A DNA stretch of 64,000 nt, from NCBI GenBank assembly GCA_964426735.1, contig CAYRRP010000001.1:75923-139922 (forward strand), written 5' to 3'. The notes beneath the pieces were generated by a model. That model was not told the origin of the DNA. It searched no databases and saw only the letters and a list, made by a program, of their open reading frames with translations. Origin of the DNA: an uncultured Candidatus Saccharibacteria bacterium. GTDB taxonomy: Bacteria > Patescibacteriota > Minisyncoccia > Phycocordibacterales > DATDWN01. Shown piece after piece: positions 24,369 through 64,000 of this stretch (positions are counted from its first letter, which is position 1; each line of letters begins with the position of its first letter). A program made the translations under genes and the position numbers.

Positions 24369-25889
24369 TTAAAATTCATTAAGAAGAGATACATCTGCAC
24401 CGATTGAGTTCAATCGTTCGGCAATATTTTCGTATCCGCGATTAATAGCATATACATTACGAAGAATGGAAGTTCCTGTGGCACCAAGCATTGCAACAAG
24501 GATGATCATTGATGGACGAAGAGCGGGTGGGCATACCACTTGTGTCGCGTGTAGAGGTGTGGGTCCGTTAATAAATACCCTATGAGGGTCAGCGATAATA
24601 ATGTCGCTACCAAGACGGTTTAATTCATTGAAATAGATTGCTCGGCTTTCCCACATCCAGTCATGAATAAGGGTGGTACCTTTTGCCTGAGTTGCGATAG
24701 GTACAAAGAAGGGCAGATTGTCTGAATTTATGCCCGGGTATGCAGATGCATGAATCTTATCTTTTAATGCGGTAAGTTTTGAAGGATACACTGTTATATC
24801 ACATAGTTTGGTGTATCCATTTTTTGCTACATAGAGAGGTCCTTCTGTGTATTTCATTCCCATTTTTTCAAGCTTTAGTATCTCCAGAGAAAGAAAATCA
24901 ATTGGACATCGTGTGATGGTAAGTTTTGATTTTGTAACGAGTGCTGCGGCAATAAACATCATTGATTCGGTAGGGTCTTCACTGTTCCAATATTCAATTG
25001 GTTTATTTATCTCGCTTATTCCATGAATAATAAGTGTACTTGTGCCAATTCCTTCAATCTTCACTCCGCATTGTTTAAGAAAAAAACACACTTCTTGTAC
25101 CTGATAATTTGGTGGAGTAAAACGAAGAGTGGTAGTACCTGGAATAAGTGCAGAAGCAATAAGAAGGTTTTCTGTAGCTGTGTCTGAAGCTTCAAATAAT
25201 ACAATATCCGCGGGCTGTAGCTTCTTAGTTATTATTTCATAATGTGTTTGTTTGGTGGCTATATGTGCACCGAGCGACTCAAGTCCGTATCGATGGGCGG
25301 CGATTGTTCGTTGCCCCATTTTACATCCACCTGCATGTGGTATTGTAAAATTTTTTTCGTGATGTATGAGTGCACCAATAAGCATAAGTACTGATCGTAT
25401 GCGTGTTGAATTTACGGCACGTAATTTTTCTACAGAAAATTTTTTGGGAGGTTGGATGCGCACCGTATTTTTATCCACCCAGTCAATTTTAACGCCAATA
25501 CACTCAAATATTTCAATAATGCGACTGATTTCCTCAATCCGAGGGATGCCGTGGAGTGTTGTTGTGTTTTTGTTGAGGAGGGAAGCGCAAAAAAGACCAA
25601 GCGCACCATTTTTAGATGTGTTGGTTTGTATTGATCCTGATAACGTTTTTCCTCCTGTAATCTTAAAATCATCTGTAGTGTTCTCTACTTTTACAATCGT
25701 TTTACCAAGAATGGTACTTATTTTAGAAAGTAAATCTGCAGTTAGGTTTTGATCGCCTTTTTCTATTCGAGCAACGGCACTCTGAGAAGTTTTTAGTTTT
25801 TTTGCGAAATCTCCTTGTGTCAAACCTGCATCCTCACGCATTTGTTTAATAATCATCCCTATTTTTTCCATGCTTTTTTGTTGAGACAT
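24369..25889 (-). CDS. murA: UDP-N-acetylglucosamine 1-carboxyvinyltransferase with N-terminal XRE-type HTH domain
   Basis: 506 aa. Residues about 10-70 form an HTH_XRE fold (MREDAGLTQGDFAKKLKTSQSAVARIEKGDQNLTADLLSKISTILG). The remainder is canonical MurA (SKNGALGL; active-site Cys in HAGGCKMGQRTI). Confidence 0.85.
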   Translation of the reverse strand: MSQQKSMEKIGMIIKQMREDAGLTQGDFAKKLKTSQSAVARIEKGDQNLTADLLSKISTILGKTIVKVENTTDDFKITGGKTLSGSIQTNTSKNGALGLFCASLLNKNTTTLHGIPRIEEISRIIEIFECIGVKIDWVDKNTVRIQPPKKFSVEKLRAVNSTRIRSVLMLIGALIHHEKNFTIPHAGGCKMGQRTIAAHRYGLESLGAHIATKQTHYEIITKKLQPADIVLFEASDTATENLLIASALIPGTTTLRFTPPNYQVQEVCFFLKQCGVKIEGIGTSTLIIHGISEINKPIEYWNSEDPTESMMFIAAALVTKSKLTITRCPIDFLSLEILKLEKMGMKYTEGPLYVAKNGYTKLCDITVYPSKLTALKDKIHASAYPGINSDNLPFFVPIATQAKGTTLIHDWMWESRAIYFNELNRLGSDIIIADPHRVFINGPTPLHATQVVCPPALRPSMIILVAMLGATGTSILRNVYAINRGYENIAERLNSIGADVSLLNEF

Positions 25890-25895
25890 ATGTTT

Positions 25896-25968
25896 GTGGA
25901 TAAGTAATTAGATATATCATATATGATATATTATTATTTACAACAAAAGGTAACTGTGGATAATTAAA
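25896..25968. promoter_or_regulatory. murA/murB divergent promoter region with operator-like repeats
   Basis: Direct repeat TGTGGATAAGTAA (25896-25908) and TGTGGATAATTAA (25956-25968) flank a palindrome GATATATCATATATGATATAT (25911-25931). Confidence 0.5.
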
Positions 25969-25972
25969 AAAT

Positions 25973-61580: not shown

Positions 61581-62384
61581 GTATTTTTCAATATTCTTTT
61601 TGTGCTCCTCATATGTCTTCGCACAGTGTATTTTCTTTTTCTTGTCGTGGAGGTAAAACATACAGCTTGTCTTTTGAGGATTGTATGCAGCTTCGAGAGC
61701 AGCAAGTCCAGGGTTTGCTATCGGTGTAGGAGGTAAACTTTTGTTTTGATATGTGTTGTATGGAGATACAATATATTTATCTTCTGACTTTACTTGAGGC
61801 CACCACAAATCCTCATCTCCCTTTGCATACTGAAGTGTTGCGTCCATTTGAAGTTTCATTCCAGCAAAAATACGATTCCAAATAATTCCTGAAATCAGAC
61901 GCATGTCACTTTTGCCACCCGCTTCACGTTGGATGATAGAAGCAACAATCAAAGCAGTATCTTCATTGAGGATTGTAGTGTTTTTACTTCGTTTGATTTC
62001 TTTTGTTTTTTTATCAAATGCTTTGATCATCATCTCACTCACTTCTTCTGGTTCAGCATCTTTCATAATCATGTAATTTTGTGGAAAATAAAATCCTTCA
62101 GAAGTTTTTTTTCCGAGTGCAATATGTGCGTTTAAAAAATCTTCTTTATCTTGCTCATCCCACCCAAGTTTTGCTCCGACTGATTCAGCCACTTGTTCTT
62201 TGCGCCATCCTTCTTGAATATAGATCATTCGTACCGAAGGGTTTGCGAGGTTTTGATAAAAAGAGAGTGATGCAAGCTCAGAAAAAGGTATGTGATAATA
62301 ATGAAGAAGATATCCGAGTGCGATAAGAGGTATAAAAGGAAATATAAAAAAATATGGAACTTTTTTAATACGAAAAGGTCGTTT
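61575..62384 (-). CDS. mltG: endolytic murein transglycosylase MltG (YceG-like)
   Basis: N-terminal TM helix; ASIIQREAG; SPYNTYQNKSLPPTPIANPGLAALEAA. Confidence 0.75.
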   Translation of the reverse strand, partial: KRPFRIKKVPYFFIFPFIPLIALGYLLHYYHIPFSELASLSFYQNLANPSVRMIYIQEGWRKEQVAESVGAKLGWDEQDKEDFLNAHIALGKKTSEGFYFPQNYMIMKDAEPEEVSEMMIKAFDKKTKEIKRSKNTTILNEDTALIVASIIQREAGGKSDMRLISGIIWNRIFAGMKLQMDATLQYAKGDEDLWWPQVKSEDKYIVSPYNTYQNKSLPPTPIANPGLAALEAAYNPQKTSCMFYLHDKKKKIHCAKTYEEHKKNIEKYL

Positions 62385-62429
62385 CATGGCTTTGAAATAG
62401 TATACTAAGTATAGTATAGTAGTCTGCAT

Positions 62430-62660
62430 ATGTCACTAAAAACATTTTTTTTAAAGAAGATGCTTTCATCAAAAATGAAAGGTGTTCCACAAGCAGAGCA
62501 AGATAAGATATTTGATATGATTGAAAAAAACCCAGATCTTTTCCAGAAGATTGGTGTTGAAGTACAAGAAAAGATGCAGAAAGAAGGGAAGGATCAAATG
62601 CAGGCTGCGATGGAGGTGATGCAGAAACATAAAGACCAACTCCAAGGTCTCATGAAGTAG
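62430..62660 (+). CDS. small helical hypothetical protein
   Basis: 76-aa Lys/Gln/Met-rich ORF. Low confidence. Confidence 0.3.
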   Translation: MSLKTFFLKKMLSSKMKGVPQAEQDKIFDMIEKNPDLFQKIGVEVQEKMQKEGKDQMQAAMEVMQKHKDQLQGLMK

Positions 62661-62876
62661 GAATTTTAAATTTGGTAAATTTCGTTGTTGGAATTCATTC
62701 AAATTTAAAATCCTTAGTAGCCTATTTCTCGTCGAATTTTTCTTAAATAGTAAACTTTGTAGGATTCAAAAAAGATCAAAAATAATCGAGGTTTGTAGGC
62801 CTCACAAAAAACCACTCTTGAACGGAGTGATTTTTTATATCCGAATGCGCTATCCACACCTATTTTCGTTGACGGT

Positions 62877-62888
62877 GAACAAGTGTTC
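62877..62888 (+). promoter_or_regulatory. LexA (SOS) box, Cheo-type GAAC-N4-GTTC
   Basis: GTGAACAAGTGTTCAC is a perfect 16-nt palindrome. It lies about 50 nt upstream of the small ORF that is translationally coupled to lexA. Confidence 0.6.
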
Positions 62889-62936
62889 ACCTATGATAAT
62901 GATATACAAGAAACGCATAATAATTATAAAAACCAT

Positions 62937-63144
62937 GAGTAAACAAAATTTTGAAAAAGCATTGCGAGATGAACTAGAAGTTTTGAATGAGACGATCGAT
63001 CGAAAGATTATCAAAGGTCTTTCGTATGCCGCTGAAGCTCGTCGACACAAAGCGATTCTTTCTCAGATACTTGAGATACGACGCCGAGACAATCGTTCAA
63101 GCTGGTTCTTGCGATCACTTGGGTTTACTTCATTTTTATTCTAA
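62937..63144 (+). CDS. small SOS-regulated protein upstream of lexA (candidate cell-division inhibitor)
   Basis: 69 aa (MSKQNFEKALRDELEVL...RSSWFLRSLGFTSFLF) with a hydrophobic C-terminus. Stop overlaps the lexA ATG (TAATG). LexA box upstream. Confidence 0.4.
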
Positions 63145-63707
63145 TGAATTCATATAAAGATAAAATTTTTGCTTTTTACGGGCGATACAAACGGATGCCA
63201 AACTATCAAGAGATCATGGATCTTGTTGGTTTCAAATCCAAAAATGCAGTGTATAAACTCATCAATAAACTTATTGATGAAGGGGTCGTGACAAAAGACT
63301 CAAAGGGTAAGCTTGTACCCACACGAATGTTTGATGAGGTGCCACTTTTAGGTCTGGTGGAGGCAGGTTTTCCTACTACAGCTGATGAAGAAGTACTTGA
63401 GACTCTCTCACTTGATAACTATCTCATCAAACACAAAGAGTCCACCTATCTTCTTGAAGTTAAAGGTGATTCGATGATTGAAGAAGGTATTAAGGAAGGT
63501 GACCTTGTTATCGTGGAGCGAAGGGGGGATGCTAAAGAGGGAGATATTGTAATTGCAGAAGTCGATGGTGGATGGACGATGAAATATTACAAGAAAAAAG
63601 GAAACCAAGTCTACCTCATGCCTGCCAACAAAAACTACAAACCCATCTATCCAGAATATGATCTCAAAATCGCCGCGATTGTGAAGGGAGTAATTCGTAA
63701 GTACTAA
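63144..63707 (+). CDS. lexA: LexA repressor
   Basis: N-terminal winged HTH and a C-terminal S24 peptidase domain with GDSM (Ser nucleophile) and the catalytic Lys in TMKYYKK. Self-cleavage site region LGLVEAGFP. Confidence 0.85.
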   Translation: MNSYKDKIFAFYGRYKRMPNYQEIMDLVGFKSKNAVYKLINKLIDEGVVTKDSKGKLVPTRMFDEVPLLGLVEAGFPTTADEEVLETLSLDNYLIKHKESTYLLEVKGDSMIEEGIKEGDLVIVERRGDAKEGDIVIAEVDGGWTMKYYKKKGNQVYLMPANKNYKPIYPEYDLKIAAIVKGVIRKY

Positions 63708-63708
63708 A

Positions 63709-64000
63709 ATGAAAAAAGATTTTGATAAGTGGAACGAGGTTAAAAAGAAGACTGAAGCAGAACAGCCAAGGTTGTATACCGTGAGAGAAATCTGGTGGTG
63801 TAGATTTGGACTAAATATTGGGACAGAGCAGGATGGTAAGGGTGAATGGTATGTGAGGCCGTGCATTATCTTGAGAGGATTTGGTCCAGATGCATGTCTT
63901 GTTGTTCCTCTCACCACATCTCCACGTAAACATGTCTTAAGAATATCATTGGGTAAAATCAATGGAGAAAAAGCGAATGCGAACCTTTCTCAGATAAGAG
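63709..64000 (+). CDS. PemK/MazF-family toxin-like protein (3' partial at window end)
   Basis: REIWWCRFGLNIGTEQDGKGEWYVRPCIIL...VVPLTTS resembles the Kid/PemK/MazF mRNA interferase core. Truncated by the window end. Confidence 0.5.
   Translation, partial: MKKDFDKWNEVKKKTEAEQPRLYTVREIWWCRFGLNIGTEQDGKGEWYVRPCIILRGFGPDACLVVPLTTSPRKHVLRISLGKINGEKANANLSQIR

What the first reader, a model, noticed from the sequence alone, without database searches (positions are those of the whole stretch)
62860..63707. Cheo-type LexA box controls a small ORF translationally coupled to lexA: candidate SOS effector
A perfect palindrome GTGAACAAGTGTTCAC (GAAC-N4-GTTC, the Gram-positive-type LexA operator) lies upstream of a 69-codon ORF. 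That ORF's stop overlaps the lexA start codon (TAATG). The small protein (MSKQNFEKALRDELEVLNET...SSWFLRSLGFTSFLF) has a hydrophobic C-terminus and no recognisable family. Small LexA-controlled proteins next to lexA are often SOS cell-division inhibitors (SulA, YneA, ChiZ analogues), and this is a candidate in a lineage where none is defined. I saw no other full LexA box by eye upstream of uvrA, uvrB or uvrC; only a GTTCAC half-site precedes uvrB.
Basis: partly seen in the sequence, partly recalled or inferred. Interest (0 to 1): 0.5.

Follow-up and report, generated by a model that had tools for sequence, protein, structure and literature searches.

The report
LexA-controlled small protein gene beside lexA
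In a group of tiny uncultured bacteria (Patescibacteria), the DNA-damage repressor gene lexA is almost always paired with a conserved, unannotated 69-residue protein gene under the same LexA operator, so this protein is a strong but untested candidate for a damage-response effector in a lineage where none is defined.

Summary
GGTGAAC-AAGT-GTTCACC (62874-62891) fills the 17-nt spacer of a TTGACG/TATGAT promoter. A 69-codon ORF (62935-63144) ends in TAATG, which overlaps the start of a genuine lexA (63144-63707).

The ORF is a real gene. Half of its differing codons are synonymous, against 6-10% in the other frames. It defines a family of about 312 clusters with no Pfam, NCBIfam, PHROG or PDB relative.

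In 36 of 36 species-level genomes, and in 4 of 4 distant representatives, it lies next to lexA. It is usually upstream of lexA, once downstream, and once divergent. The operator arms are invariant in 40 sites that carry 31 different spacers. The motif occurs once per locus in 355 kb, and it also precedes a Y-family polymerase gene elsewhere.

The protein is a basic helical hairpin with a 14-residue aromatic C-terminal motif. That motif is too short to span a membrane, so the protein is not a YneA/SosA-type membrane inhibitor and not SulA.

A DnaA-box-like TTATCCACA is also conserved just upstream of the -35.

Function is untested. My best guess is an SOS/replication-stress checkpoint effector (about 0.4). 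The main rival is a LexA/RecA modulator. The family is a new variant of a known kind and of moderate interest.

The parts
62813..62836 (+). Terminator-like hairpin plus T-run that closes the upstream unit. It insulates the lexA operon promoter.
   Evidence: CACTCTTGAACGGAGTG then ATTTTTTATA. A hairpin plus T-run, with different stem sequences, precedes the promoter in part of the related loci.
62850..62858 (+). DnaA-box-like 9-mer CTATCCACA (consensus TTATCCACA in relatives), 10 nt upstream of the -35. It is an inferred second regulatory site.
   Evidence: A perfect TTATCCACA lies within 80 nt upstream of the operator in 33 loci. There are 59 perfect copies in 291 kb of family loci, against about 2 expected and 5 in 742 kb of unrelated DNA. 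That DnaA is the binding factor is an inference from the canonical DnaA-box consensus.
62869..62874 (+). -35 hexamer TTGACG
   Evidence: TTGAC abuts the operator in nearly all of the 40 sites.
62874..62891 (+). LexA operator GGTGAAC-AAGT-GTTCACC (core GAAC-N4-GTTC at 62877-62888), occupying the promoter spacer
   Evidence: and the Y-family polymerase promoter in L126.
62892..62897 (+). -10 hexamer TATGAT
   Evidence: TATAAT or TATACT starts 1 nt after the operator in 28 of 40 sites.
62935..63144 (+). Small ORF of 69 aa: a basic helical hairpin with the C-terminal aromatic motif WFxRSFxFxSxFxF. It is the first gene of the operon and founds an unannotated protein family.
63144..63707 (+). lexA (187 aa), whose start codon overlaps the small ORF's stop (TAATG)
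63709..64000 (+). PemK/MazF-like toxin gene, starting 1 nt after the lexA stop and cut by the window end (127 aa in L001). It is probably the third gene of the operon in this strain only.

Best explanation
The region is an autoregulated lexA operon. Its first gene encodes a previously unannotated small protein that is specific to Patescibacteria.

Shown or strongly supported:
1. One sigma-70-type promoter carries a Gram-positive-type LexA operator (GTGAAC-N4-GTTCAC) in its spacer. LexA bound there would block RNA polymerase.
2. The 69-aa ORF is translated and is under purifying selection.
3. In this clade, lexA translation is coupled to the ORF (TAATG, with no Shine-Dalgarno sequence before lexA).
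4. The ORF and lexA stay adjacent across the whole family, whatever the gene order.

Inferred:
5. When DNA damage activates RecA, LexA (Ala-Gly site and Ser/Lys dyad intact) cleaves itself. The operon is then derepressed and the small protein rises together with new LexA.
6. The small protein is the lineage's SOS/replication-stress effector. It is a strongly basic antiparallel helical hairpin that binds a partner. Its 14-residue C-terminal aromatic amphipathic helix, which has a Ser/Thr-rich polar face and ends in Phe or Leu, takes it to the membrane periphery or into a partner's groove, and may also serve as a degradation tag. The most likely outcome is a delay of cell division or of replication until repair is finished.
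7. The conserved TTATCCACA next to the -35 adds an input from DnaA, so the operon would respond to replication status as well as to damage.

Confidence differs by step. Steps 1-4 are about 0.9. Step 5 is about 0.8. Step 6 (the checkpoint role) is about 0.4. Step 7 is about 0.4.
For: Operator:
- Single site in the window.
- 40 sites with invariant arms and 31 different spacers.
- Once per locus in 355 kb, always at this promoter.
- A symmetrical variant, GTGTAC-N4-GTACAC, sits at the same position in L052.
- The same motif lies directly before a Y-family polymerase gene in L126.
- The box and -10 are visible even in mis-called N-terminal extensions of distant family members (the 'GERSFTYT' peptides).

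lexA:
- TIGR00498 above its cut-off. Catalytic and cleavage residues are kept.

Coding:
- Differences at codon positions 1/2/3 are 8996/6109/16731.
- 10081 synonymous against 9786 non-synonymous differing codons in frame, against 6-10% synonymous in the other frames.
- 37 close homologues and 312 clusters at E<=1e-3.

Linkage:
- 36 of 36 species loci, with unrelated flanking genes.
- The order is lexA then ORF in L044.
- The two genes are divergent in L050/L051, next to a different type of LexA.
- Distant representatives P0100, P0175 and P0150 are also next to an S24 LexA.

Protein:
- AF2 gives a hairpin, H3-27 and H32-68, with pLDDT 86-98 over the first 50 residues.
- Net charge about +5.8.
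- The C-terminal motif W-F-x-[RK]-S-[FL]-x-[FL]-[VA]-S-x-F-x-F lies 12-14 aa from the end in most of the 137 of 186 members that carry it.

Precedents:
- Small SOS inhibitors encoded next to lexA (PMC6851548, PMC6051672).
- Sda, a helical-hairpin checkpoint protein driven by DnaA boxes (PMC10730256).
- Joint DnaA and LexA control of E. coli uvrB (PMC6015884).
Against: - There is no functional evidence of any kind, and no homology to any characterised protein.
- The tail is too short for a transmembrane anchor. The protein therefore differs from every characterised Gram-positive-type SOS division inhibitor.
- The gene lies upstream of lexA and is translationally coupled to it. The protein must therefore be made whenever LexA is made, including in undamaged cells. 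That is awkward for a potent inhibitor unless it is unstable or weak.
- At least one related lexA with the same operator has no small ORF upstream (L073).
- The factor that binds TTATCCACA is not identified. No dnaA gene or origin lies in the DNA held. The motif also precedes other promoters.
- The rest of the LexA regulon in this genome is unknown. Only 64 kb was available.
Confidence: 0.42

Rival explanations
1. The small protein is an accessory factor of the SOS switch itself. It would bind LexA (or RecA) and tune operator binding or self-cleavage. It is made in fixed proportion to LexA because the two act together.
For: - Adjacency to lexA is kept in three different gene arrangements, and next to two LexA types.
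- Stop/start overlaps of 1 or 11 nt in several clades imply coupled synthesis.
- The gene sits upstream of lexA, so basal expression is obligatory.
- A strongly basic hairpin could sit on DNA beside LexA.
- Precedents: the small phage protein gp7 binds LexA, enhances DNA binding and blocks cleavage (PMC4551915). recX and dinI are RecA modulators under SOS control (established knowledge).
Against: - No similarity to gp7, DinI, RecX or PsiB. None appears among PDB profile hits up to E=10.
- A conserved aromatic amphipathic C-terminal motif is not expected for a DNA-bound co-repressor.
- Adjacency to lexA is also typical of yneA, sosA, divS and chiZ, whose products do not bind LexA.
- L073 has this LexA type and operator without the ORF upstream.
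Confidence: 0.25
2. The protein is a nucleic-acid-binding hairpin related or convergent to the C-terminal hairpin of ribosomal protein bS20. After damage it would act on rRNA/ribosomes or on DNA, for example by slowing translation or binding at the origin.
For: - The only PDB sequence hits of the family profile are bS20 chains. The motif iDrkiikGLsYarEArRHK aligns with vDRqaaKGLihknkAaRHK (E=0.15).
- E. coli bS20 finds the small ORF in almost every locus by tblastn.
- Net charge is about +5.8.
- The fold resembles the tRNA-binding arm of seryl-tRNA synthetase.
Against: - The similarity is not significant: hhalign probability 15%.
- No member of 116 matches Pfam Ribosomal_S20p.
- B. subtilis and Thermus bS20 do not hit the ORF.
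- The N-terminal helix of bS20 is absent.
- Helical hairpins match many unrelated proteins.
Confidence: 0.1
3. The ORF is a toxin-like or purely cis-acting element. It would be either a small membrane-active toxin induced by SOS (as TisB or HokE are), or merely an upstream ORF whose translation delivers ribosomes to lexA.
For: - It has a hydrophobic C-terminus.
- It is under SOS control.
- lexA has no Shine-Dalgarno sequence and overlaps the ORF stop.
- A MazF-like toxin gene follows lexA in five loci.
Against: - The protein sequence, not just the reading frame, is conserved over 312 clusters, with invariant polar residues.
- The gene also occurs downstream of lexA, divergent from it, or 120-215 nt away, where coupling is impossible.
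- The body is hydrophilic and basic, and the tail is too short for a pore-forming helix.
- No PADLOC, PHROG or toxin family was matched in the libraries searched.
Confidence: 0.06

Closest known systems
YneA (B. subtilis), SosA (S. aureus), ChiZ (M. tuberculosis), DivS (C. glutamicum): small LexA-regulated division inhibitors encoded next to lexA
   Same: It is small and lineage-specific, lies directly beside lexA, and shares the lexA operator region. In one lineage (L050/L051) it is divergent from lexA, as those genes are. No two of these families are homologous to each other either.
   Different: It has no transmembrane helix and no LysM domain. It is usually co-transcribed with and upstream of lexA rather than divergent. 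Its C-terminal aromatic amphipathic motif replaces an N-terminal membrane anchor. Its activity is untested.
SulA in the lexA-sulA operon of Pseudomonas (cytoplasmic FtsZ inhibitor degraded by Lon)
   Same: It is co-transcribed with lexA under the lexA operator, and it is a soluble protein whose C-terminus could be a protease tag. The Pseudomonas operon structure and the Lon degradation of SulA come from established knowledge and were not checked here.
   Different: There is no SulA domain. It has 69 aa against about 160. The fold is a helical hairpin rather than alpha/beta. The gene order is reversed, with the small gene first.
Sda (B. subtilis replication/damage checkpoint protein)
   Same: It is a helical hairpin of 46-70 aa whose promoter carries DnaA boxes (PMC10730256). 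Here, a DnaA-box-like TTATCCACA is conserved at the promoter.
   Different: There is no sequence similarity (hhalign probability 2%). Sda targets the sporulation kinase KinA, which has no counterpart in the role expected here. Sda is not next to lexA and has no LexA box.
GIL01 gp7 (small phage protein that binds LexA)
   Same: It is a small protein that is functionally coupled to LexA (PMC4551915).
   Different: gp7 is encoded by a phage. The family described here is absent from viral contigs and from PHROGs. No sequence hit to gp7 appeared in the PDB profile search.
Cheo box, the Gram-positive LexA operator (CGAAC-N4-GTTCG)
   Same: It has the same GAAC-N4-GTTC core and the same position over the promoter of lexA itself.
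   Different: The flanks are GT/AC (GTGAAC...GTTCAC) rather than C/G. A sub-lineage has the symmetrical variant GTGTAC-N4-GTACAC. The published Patescibacteria motif (Sanchez-Osuna et al. 2017, Environ Microbiol 19:3465) could not be read here.

Membership tests
LexA operator of the GAAC-N4-GTTC (Gram-positive/Cheo) type | Inverted repeat GAAC-N4-GTTC | tested here: met
   62877-62888. The arms extend to 7 bp.
LexA operator of the GAAC-N4-GTTC (Gram-positive/Cheo) type | Overlaps the promoter of an SOS gene, typically lexA itself | tested here: met
   It fills the 17-nt spacer of TTGACG/TATGAT. The same layout is found in 40 sites.
LexA operator of the GAAC-N4-GTTC (Gram-positive/Cheo) type | Arms conserved and spacer free across species; the motif is also found at other SOS genes | tested here: met
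   31 different spacers on invariant arms. One site per locus in 355 kb. A Y-family polymerase promoter carries it in L126.
LexA operator of the GAAC-N4-GTTC (Gram-positive/Cheo) type | Bound by the cognate LexA | not testable with these tools
   Needs EMSA or footprinting.
LexA repressor | Winged-helix N-terminal domain plus S24 domain with an Ala-Gly site and a Ser/Lys dyad | tested here: met
   TIGR00498 at 131 bits, above the 111 cut-off. The alignment to E. coli LexA keeps AG, S and K.
Membrane-anchored SOS division inhibitors (YneA/SosA/ChiZ/SidA type) | LexA-controlled; for YneA, SosA, ChiZ and DivS, also adjacent to lexA | tested here: met
   Control by LexA is inferred from the operator.
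Membrane-anchored SOS division inhibitors (YneA/SosA/ChiZ/SidA type) | Single transmembrane helix | tested here: not met
   The longest uncharged run in the last 30 aa has a median of 9. Only 1 of 185 members reaches 18.
Membrane-anchored SOS division inhibitors (YneA/SosA/ChiZ/SidA type) | LysM or other extracytoplasmic domain (YneA, ChiZ) | tested here: not met
   No Pfam domain in any of 116 members.
Membrane-anchored SOS division inhibitors (YneA/SosA/ChiZ/SidA type) | Blocks division when overproduced | not testable with these tools
   Needs an experiment.
SulA | SulA domain (Pfam PF03846) | tested here: not met
   No SulA chain appears among the PDB hits.
Ribosomal protein bS20 | Match to the Ribosomal_S20p profile; three-helix protein with a basic N-terminal helix | tested here: not met
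   No Pfam match in 116 members. hhalign probability is 15%, over the last hairpin only.
Sda / YnzC (small helical SOS or replication-checkpoint proteins of Bacillus) | Sequence homology | tested here: not met
   hhalign probabilities are 2.4% and 0.3%.
DnaA box | 9-mer TTATCCACA (at most 1 mismatch) conserved at a regulated promoter | tested here: met
   Window copy CTATCCACA at 62850-62858. Perfect copies lie upstream of the operator in 33 loci, an enrichment of about 25-fold.
DnaA box | Bound by DnaA; the same motif clustered at oriC of the same genome | not tested
   No dnaA gene or origin lies in the DNA held.

The most novel reading that the evidence does not exclude
The small protein is the principal output of a minimal SOS system in reduced Patescibacteria genomes. 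It would be a checkpoint protein under joint LexA and DnaA control. Its free C-terminal aromatic helix (W-F-x-R-S-F...F-COOH) would act in one of three ways:
- docking on highly curved membrane;
- mimicking a short linear motif such as the FtsZ C-terminal peptide;
- mimicking a clamp-binding motif.

In any of these ways it would stall division or replication through a mechanism not seen in known SOS inhibitors.
Probability: 0.15. Interest if true: 0.75.

Novelty: new variant of a known kind. Interest (0 to 1): 0.55.

Why it matters
Patescibacteria (the candidate phyla radiation) make up a large share of bacterial diversity. Most are uncultured, and nothing is known about how they link DNA damage to the cell cycle.

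This work provides:
- a concrete candidate gene that is easy to synthesise (69 aa);
- a defined operator, GTGAAC-N4-GTTCAC;
- a possible second input, a DnaA-box-like site.

All three can be tested directly in vitro and in surrogate hosts. If the protein is a checkpoint effector, it adds a structurally new class (soluble basic hairpin plus C-terminal aromatic helix) to the set of non-homologous SOS inhibitors. If it is a LexA partner, it would be the first chromosomal, lineage-wide LexA accessory protein. In either case, an unannotated family of about 300 clusters would gain a functional context.

Tried and rejected
Family and structure searches
- Pfam, NCBIfam and PHROGs gave no family for the small ORF.
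- The PDB profile search gave only a sub-threshold bS20 hairpin match. I followed it up with tblastn and hhalign and rejected it as homology.
- Sda and YnzC showed no similarity.
- Foldseek against the PDB returned only generic helical hairpins, with no E<=0.001.
- The AlphaFold database library was not available.

RNA
- Rfam found no known RNA in 62300-64000 or in the long 5' leaders of relatives. There are no tRNAs near the downstream motif.

Readings considered and rejected
- Transmembrane anchor: rejected on run length.
- Phage or mobile origin: rejected. No viral contig carries the family, the flanks are chromosomal housekeeping genes, and the two TTATCCACA copies flanking the operon face the wrong way for terminal repeats.
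- The lexA locus lying at the replication origin: rejected for this window, because GC skew is positive from about 4 kb to the end of the window (negative only in the first 4-kb bin).

Attempts that failed or gave little
- A metagenome scan with the broad alignment A2 failed for lack of a conserved stretch.
- The DNA-pattern scan of metagenomes gave mostly chance hits. About 13 of the 120 loci had promoter context.
- The key prior paper on the Patescibacteria SOS network is not held, so I could not check whether the motif or the ORF was already noted there.
- I did not attempt a fused small-protein/LexA structure prediction. The tool reports no inter-chain contacts and accepts only unmodified sequences.
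Full report
**1. What is in the sequence**

- The sequence GGTGAAC-AAGT-GTTCACC lies at 62874-62891.
- A 69-codon ORF runs from the ATG at 62935 to the TAA at 62142-63144 region, that is 63142-63144.
- A 187-codon ORF starts at 63144, so stop and start share one base (TAATG).
- The core GAAC-N4-GTTC occurs only once in the 64-kb window. By itself this is not above chance (1.14 expected).
- The 18-mer is above chance (0.03 expected).
- The box is not a perfect palindrome. The arms are perfect and the central four bases are not.
- The box exactly fills the 17-nt spacer between TTGACG (62869) and TATGAT (62892-62897). This is the best promoter-like site in the region.
- A terminator-like hairpin (62813-62829) precedes the promoter.
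- No Rfam family matches the region.

**2. The downstream gene is a genuine lexA**

- It passes the NCBIfam equivalog TIGR00498 (131 bits against a cut-off of 111) and Pfam Peptidase_S24.
- It aligns with E. coli LexA residues 25-197.
- The Ala-Gly cleavage site (VEAGFP), the catalytic Ser (GDSM) and the Lys (TMKYY) are all kept.
- RecA-stimulated self-cleavage is therefore plausible.

**3. The palindrome behaves as a LexA operator**

- I collected related loci by exact protein look-up and by a scan of one genome per species (36 loci).
- GTGAAC-N4-GTTCAC with at most one mismatch occurs exactly once per locus in 355 kb, always at this promoter.
- Across 40 sites the arms never change, while the four central bases take 31 different values.
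- TTGAC abuts the box on one side. TATAAT or TATACT starts one base after it on the other.
- One sub-lineage carries the symmetrical variant GTGTAC-N4-GTACAC at the same position (L052). Such a change is expected when a dimeric repressor and its site drift together.
- I also scanned metagenome contigs for GGTGAAC-N4-GTTCACC. Most of the 120 hits were chance matches in GC-rich coding DNA or in terminator hairpins.
- Among the hits with promoter context were 11 lexA loci and a low-GC contig (L126). In L126 the box lies directly before a Y-family polymerase gene (Pfam IMS, 1.8e-43). That is a classical SOS gene.
- In the window itself no other site exists. The next best matches have at least 2 mismatches and are fewer than chance.
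- None lies upstream of uvrA (47666), uvrB (44846), uvrC (51097) or xseA (38679).
- Physical binding by LexA remains untested.

**4. The small ORF is a real, conserved gene**

- It has 37 homologues at 56-100% identity. The only name given by any source is 'hypothetical protein' from a Candidatus Zambryskibacteria genome.
- A profile search of 1.84 billion cluster representatives finds 312 clusters at E<=0.001 and 103 at E<=1e-10.
- Over the first 45 codons of 37 loci, differences fall 8996/6109/16731 on codon positions 1/2/3.
- In the annotated frame, 10081 differing codons are synonymous and 9786 are not. In the other two frames only 6-10% are synonymous.
- Record titles place the family in Zambryskibacteria, Taylorbacteria, Paceibacterota, Minisyncoccia and other Parcubacteria/Patescibacteria.
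- It is absent from viral contigs and from PHROGs.

**5. Linkage to lexA**

- In all 36 species-level loci the ORF lies next to an S24 LexA, although the flanking genes differ.
- The usual order is operator, small ORF, lexA. Spacing ranges from an 11-nt overlap to about 215 nt.
- In L044 the order is operator, lexA, small ORF.
- In L045 and L046 one unrelated gene is inserted between them.
- In L050/L051 the ORF is divergent from a different, 212-aa LexA type. This is the arrangement of yneA, sosA, divS and chiZ.
- Distant representatives (E about 1e-9 to 1e-12) are linked in the same way.
- Mis-called N-terminal extensions of further members translate the operator and -10 as 'GE.xFTYT'.
- One lexA with the same operator lacks the ORF upstream (L073), so the pairing is very frequent but not obligatory.

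**6. What the protein looks like**

- AlphaFold2 on the 37-sequence alignment gives an antiparallel helical hairpin (helices 3-27 and 32-68). Block-mean pLDDT is 86-98 over the first 50 residues and 52-59 over the tail.
- Invariant or nearly invariant residues across 116 diverse members are E13, N18, I21, D22, I25, G28, Y31 and H38. The consensus is EL..LN..ID.KII.G.SY..EARRHK.LL.
- The body is strongly basic, with a mean net charge of +5.8 over 50 residues.
- After a variable basic linker comes a defined motif, W-F-x-[RK]-S-[FL]-x-[FL]-[VA]-S-x-F-x-F. It is present in 137 of 186 members, mostly 12-14 residues from the C-terminus. The protein ends in Phe or Leu in 134 of 185.
- The longest uncharged run has a median of 9 residues, and only one member reaches 18. 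The tail therefore cannot span a membrane.
- On a helical wheel, the bulky residues (positions 1, 2, 6, 8, 9, 12, 13) form one broad face. Ser, Thr, Gly and one Arg form the other. This is my own reading of the consensus.
- That pattern suits an in-plane membrane helix, a peptide that docks into a partner's groove, or a protease tag.
- No characterised family matches:
  - Pfam and NCBIfam;
  - PDB by sequence, where only a sub-threshold bS20 C-terminal hairpin match appears (E=0.15; hhalign probability 15%);
  - PDB by fold, where only generic hairpins appear;
  - Sda and YnzC.

**7. A second conserved promoter element**

- A 9-mer identical to the canonical DnaA box, TTATCCACA, lies upstream of the -35. 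The window copy is CTATCCACA at 62850-62858.
- In the loci I measured it sits about 9-10 or about 18 nt from the -35.
- Perfect copies lie within 80 nt upstream of the operator in 33 loci.
- The family loci hold 59 perfect copies in 291 kb. About 2 are expected, and unrelated metagenome DNA holds 5 in 742 kb.
- The element stays with the small ORF's promoter even where lexA is divergent (L050).
- In several loci the other copies lie 6-18 nt upstream of TTGAC -35 boxes of other promoters.
- The two perfect copies in the window lie in the divergent promoter region between an HTH_3::MurA-like gene and murB.
- GC skew is positive from about 4 kb to the end of the window, so the locus is not at the origin.
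- I infer a trans-acting factor, most simply DnaA. No dnaA gene or origin was available to test this.
- Joint DnaA and LexA control has a precedent at E. coli uvrB (PMC6015884). A DnaA-box-driven helical-hairpin checkpoint protein exists in Bacillus (Sda, PMC10730256).

**8. Interpretation**

The firm part is this. The region is an autoregulated lexA operon whose first cistron encodes a new Patescibacteria-specific small protein. That protein must rise whenever LexA is inactivated.

For function I favour an SOS/replication-stress checkpoint effector (about 0.4), for three reasons:
- Small, lineage-specific, non-homologous proteins encoded beside lexA are the usual way bacteria couple damage to division (PMC6051672, PMC6851548, PMC4211646).
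- The divergent arrangement in L050 reproduces the classical layout.
- The DnaA-box-like site points to replication status as a second input.

The protein does not meet the structural definition of the YneA/SosA/ChiZ class (no transmembrane helix, no LysM domain) or of SulA. It would therefore be a new variant, not a member of those families.

The main rival (about 0.25) is a modulator of LexA or RecA. This rival best explains the obligatory co-synthesis with LexA and the persistence of the pairing next to two LexA types. The phage protein gp7 shows that a very small protein can do this (PMC4551915).

A nucleic-acid or ribosome-binding role (about 0.1) rests on a non-significant bS20-like motif and on the charge. 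A toxin or a mere leader ORF is unlikely (about 0.06), given the conservation of the sequence and the variable gene order.

**9. Novelty and limits**

- The operator type and lexA autoregulation are ordinary.
- New here are an unannotated family of about 300 clusters, its near-constant pairing with lexA, its architecture, and the conserved DnaA-box-like site.
- The 2017 comparative study of the Patescibacteria SOS network could not be read. It may already describe the motif or the operon.
- Only 64 kb of this genome was available, so the size of the regulon is unknown.
- Every functional statement is inference.

Noticed in passing
window 62850-62858; also 25895-25903(-) and 25955-25963(-); related loci L005-L053: The DnaA-box consensus TTATCCACA is conserved upstream of the -35 of the small-ORF/lexA promoter, about 9-10 or about 18 nt away in the loci I measured. 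It also lies 6-18 nt upstream of the -35 of other promoters in several loci. It is about 25-fold enriched in these loci. The binding factor is not identified.
   Followed up: partly
window 24372-25889 (-) and the intergenic region 25890-25972: A MurA/EPSP-synthase-family gene carries an N-terminal HTH_3 (XRE) domain. Its divergent promoter region with murB holds two perfect TTATCCACA boxes and a 20-bp perfect palindrome, ATATATCATATATGATATAT. This may be a self-regulating enzyme-repressor fusion.
   Followed up: no
window 63709-64000 (continues in L001 6775-7158); also L012, L014, L036, L039: A PemK/MazF-like toxin gene starts 1 nt after the lexA stop, with no recognisable antitoxin gene. The same arrangement recurs in five loci, some of them distant. 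It would be an SOS-induced orphan toxin.
   Followed up: partly
L001 7160-7260 (minus strand; just beyond the window's right end); similar in L012 and L014: A convergent promoter (TTATCCACA-6 nt-TTGACA-17 nt-ATAATT) points into the 3' end of the toxin gene. It is followed by a short transcript with UUCG- and GAAA-type hairpins (GGCTTCGGCC, CCCTCGAAAGAGGG). No Rfam or tRNA match was found. It is possibly an antisense or small RNA.
   Followed up: partly
L012 2810-2960 and L016 2450-2600: An insert of about 125 nt is shared by these two otherwise dissimilar loci. It lies between the LexA-controlled promoter and the small ORF, and it is absent from the window. It is an unknown leader or a miniature mobile element, and it contains a GAACT...AGTTC inverted repeat. 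L018 and L019 also have leaders of about 190 nt, but of different sequence.
   Followed up: partly
L052 2445-2476 (and L053): An operator variant, GTGTAC-GAGC-GTACAC, sits at the same promoter position. The change is symmetrical in both arms, which suggests co-drift of LexA and its site. L045 has a half-changed site, GTGTAC-ACTC-GTTCAC.
   Followed up: no
L126 6784-6801: GGTGAAC-AACT-GTTCACC lies directly before the start codon of a Y-family (IMS) DNA polymerase gene in a low-GC metagenome contig. dinB-like genes therefore belong to the same regulon in relatives.
   Followed up: yes
L073 386-1009: A lexA (197 aa) has the same operator and promoter, but its start codon lies only about 13 nt after the -10 and no small ORF lies upstream. 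The pairing is not universal, and this mRNA may be leaderless.
   Followed up: no
window 62898-62934 and the equivalent region in relatives: A conserved A-rich stretch follows the -10 (ATA[CT]A/ACAA[GA]A, for example GATATACAAGAAAC). There is no Shine-Dalgarno sequence before the small ORF or before lexA. The meaning for transcription start or translation initiation is unknown.
   Followed up: no
window 62430-62660 (+): A 76-aa ORF lies between mltG/yceG and the lexA operon and is conserved in position in L009 and L011. It has a weak NCBIfam match to the cell-division regulator GpsB (E=0.014, far below the cut-off).
   Followed up: no
L045 3364-3735 and 4617-4988; L046 4375-4746: Copies of a 123-aa gene (MQNSNSKFKSDLRQRCY...) flank lexA in GC-rich relatives. 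From memory it resembles the four-helix-bundle proteins encoded in 23S rRNA intervening sequences. One copy separates the small ORF from lexA.
   Followed up: no
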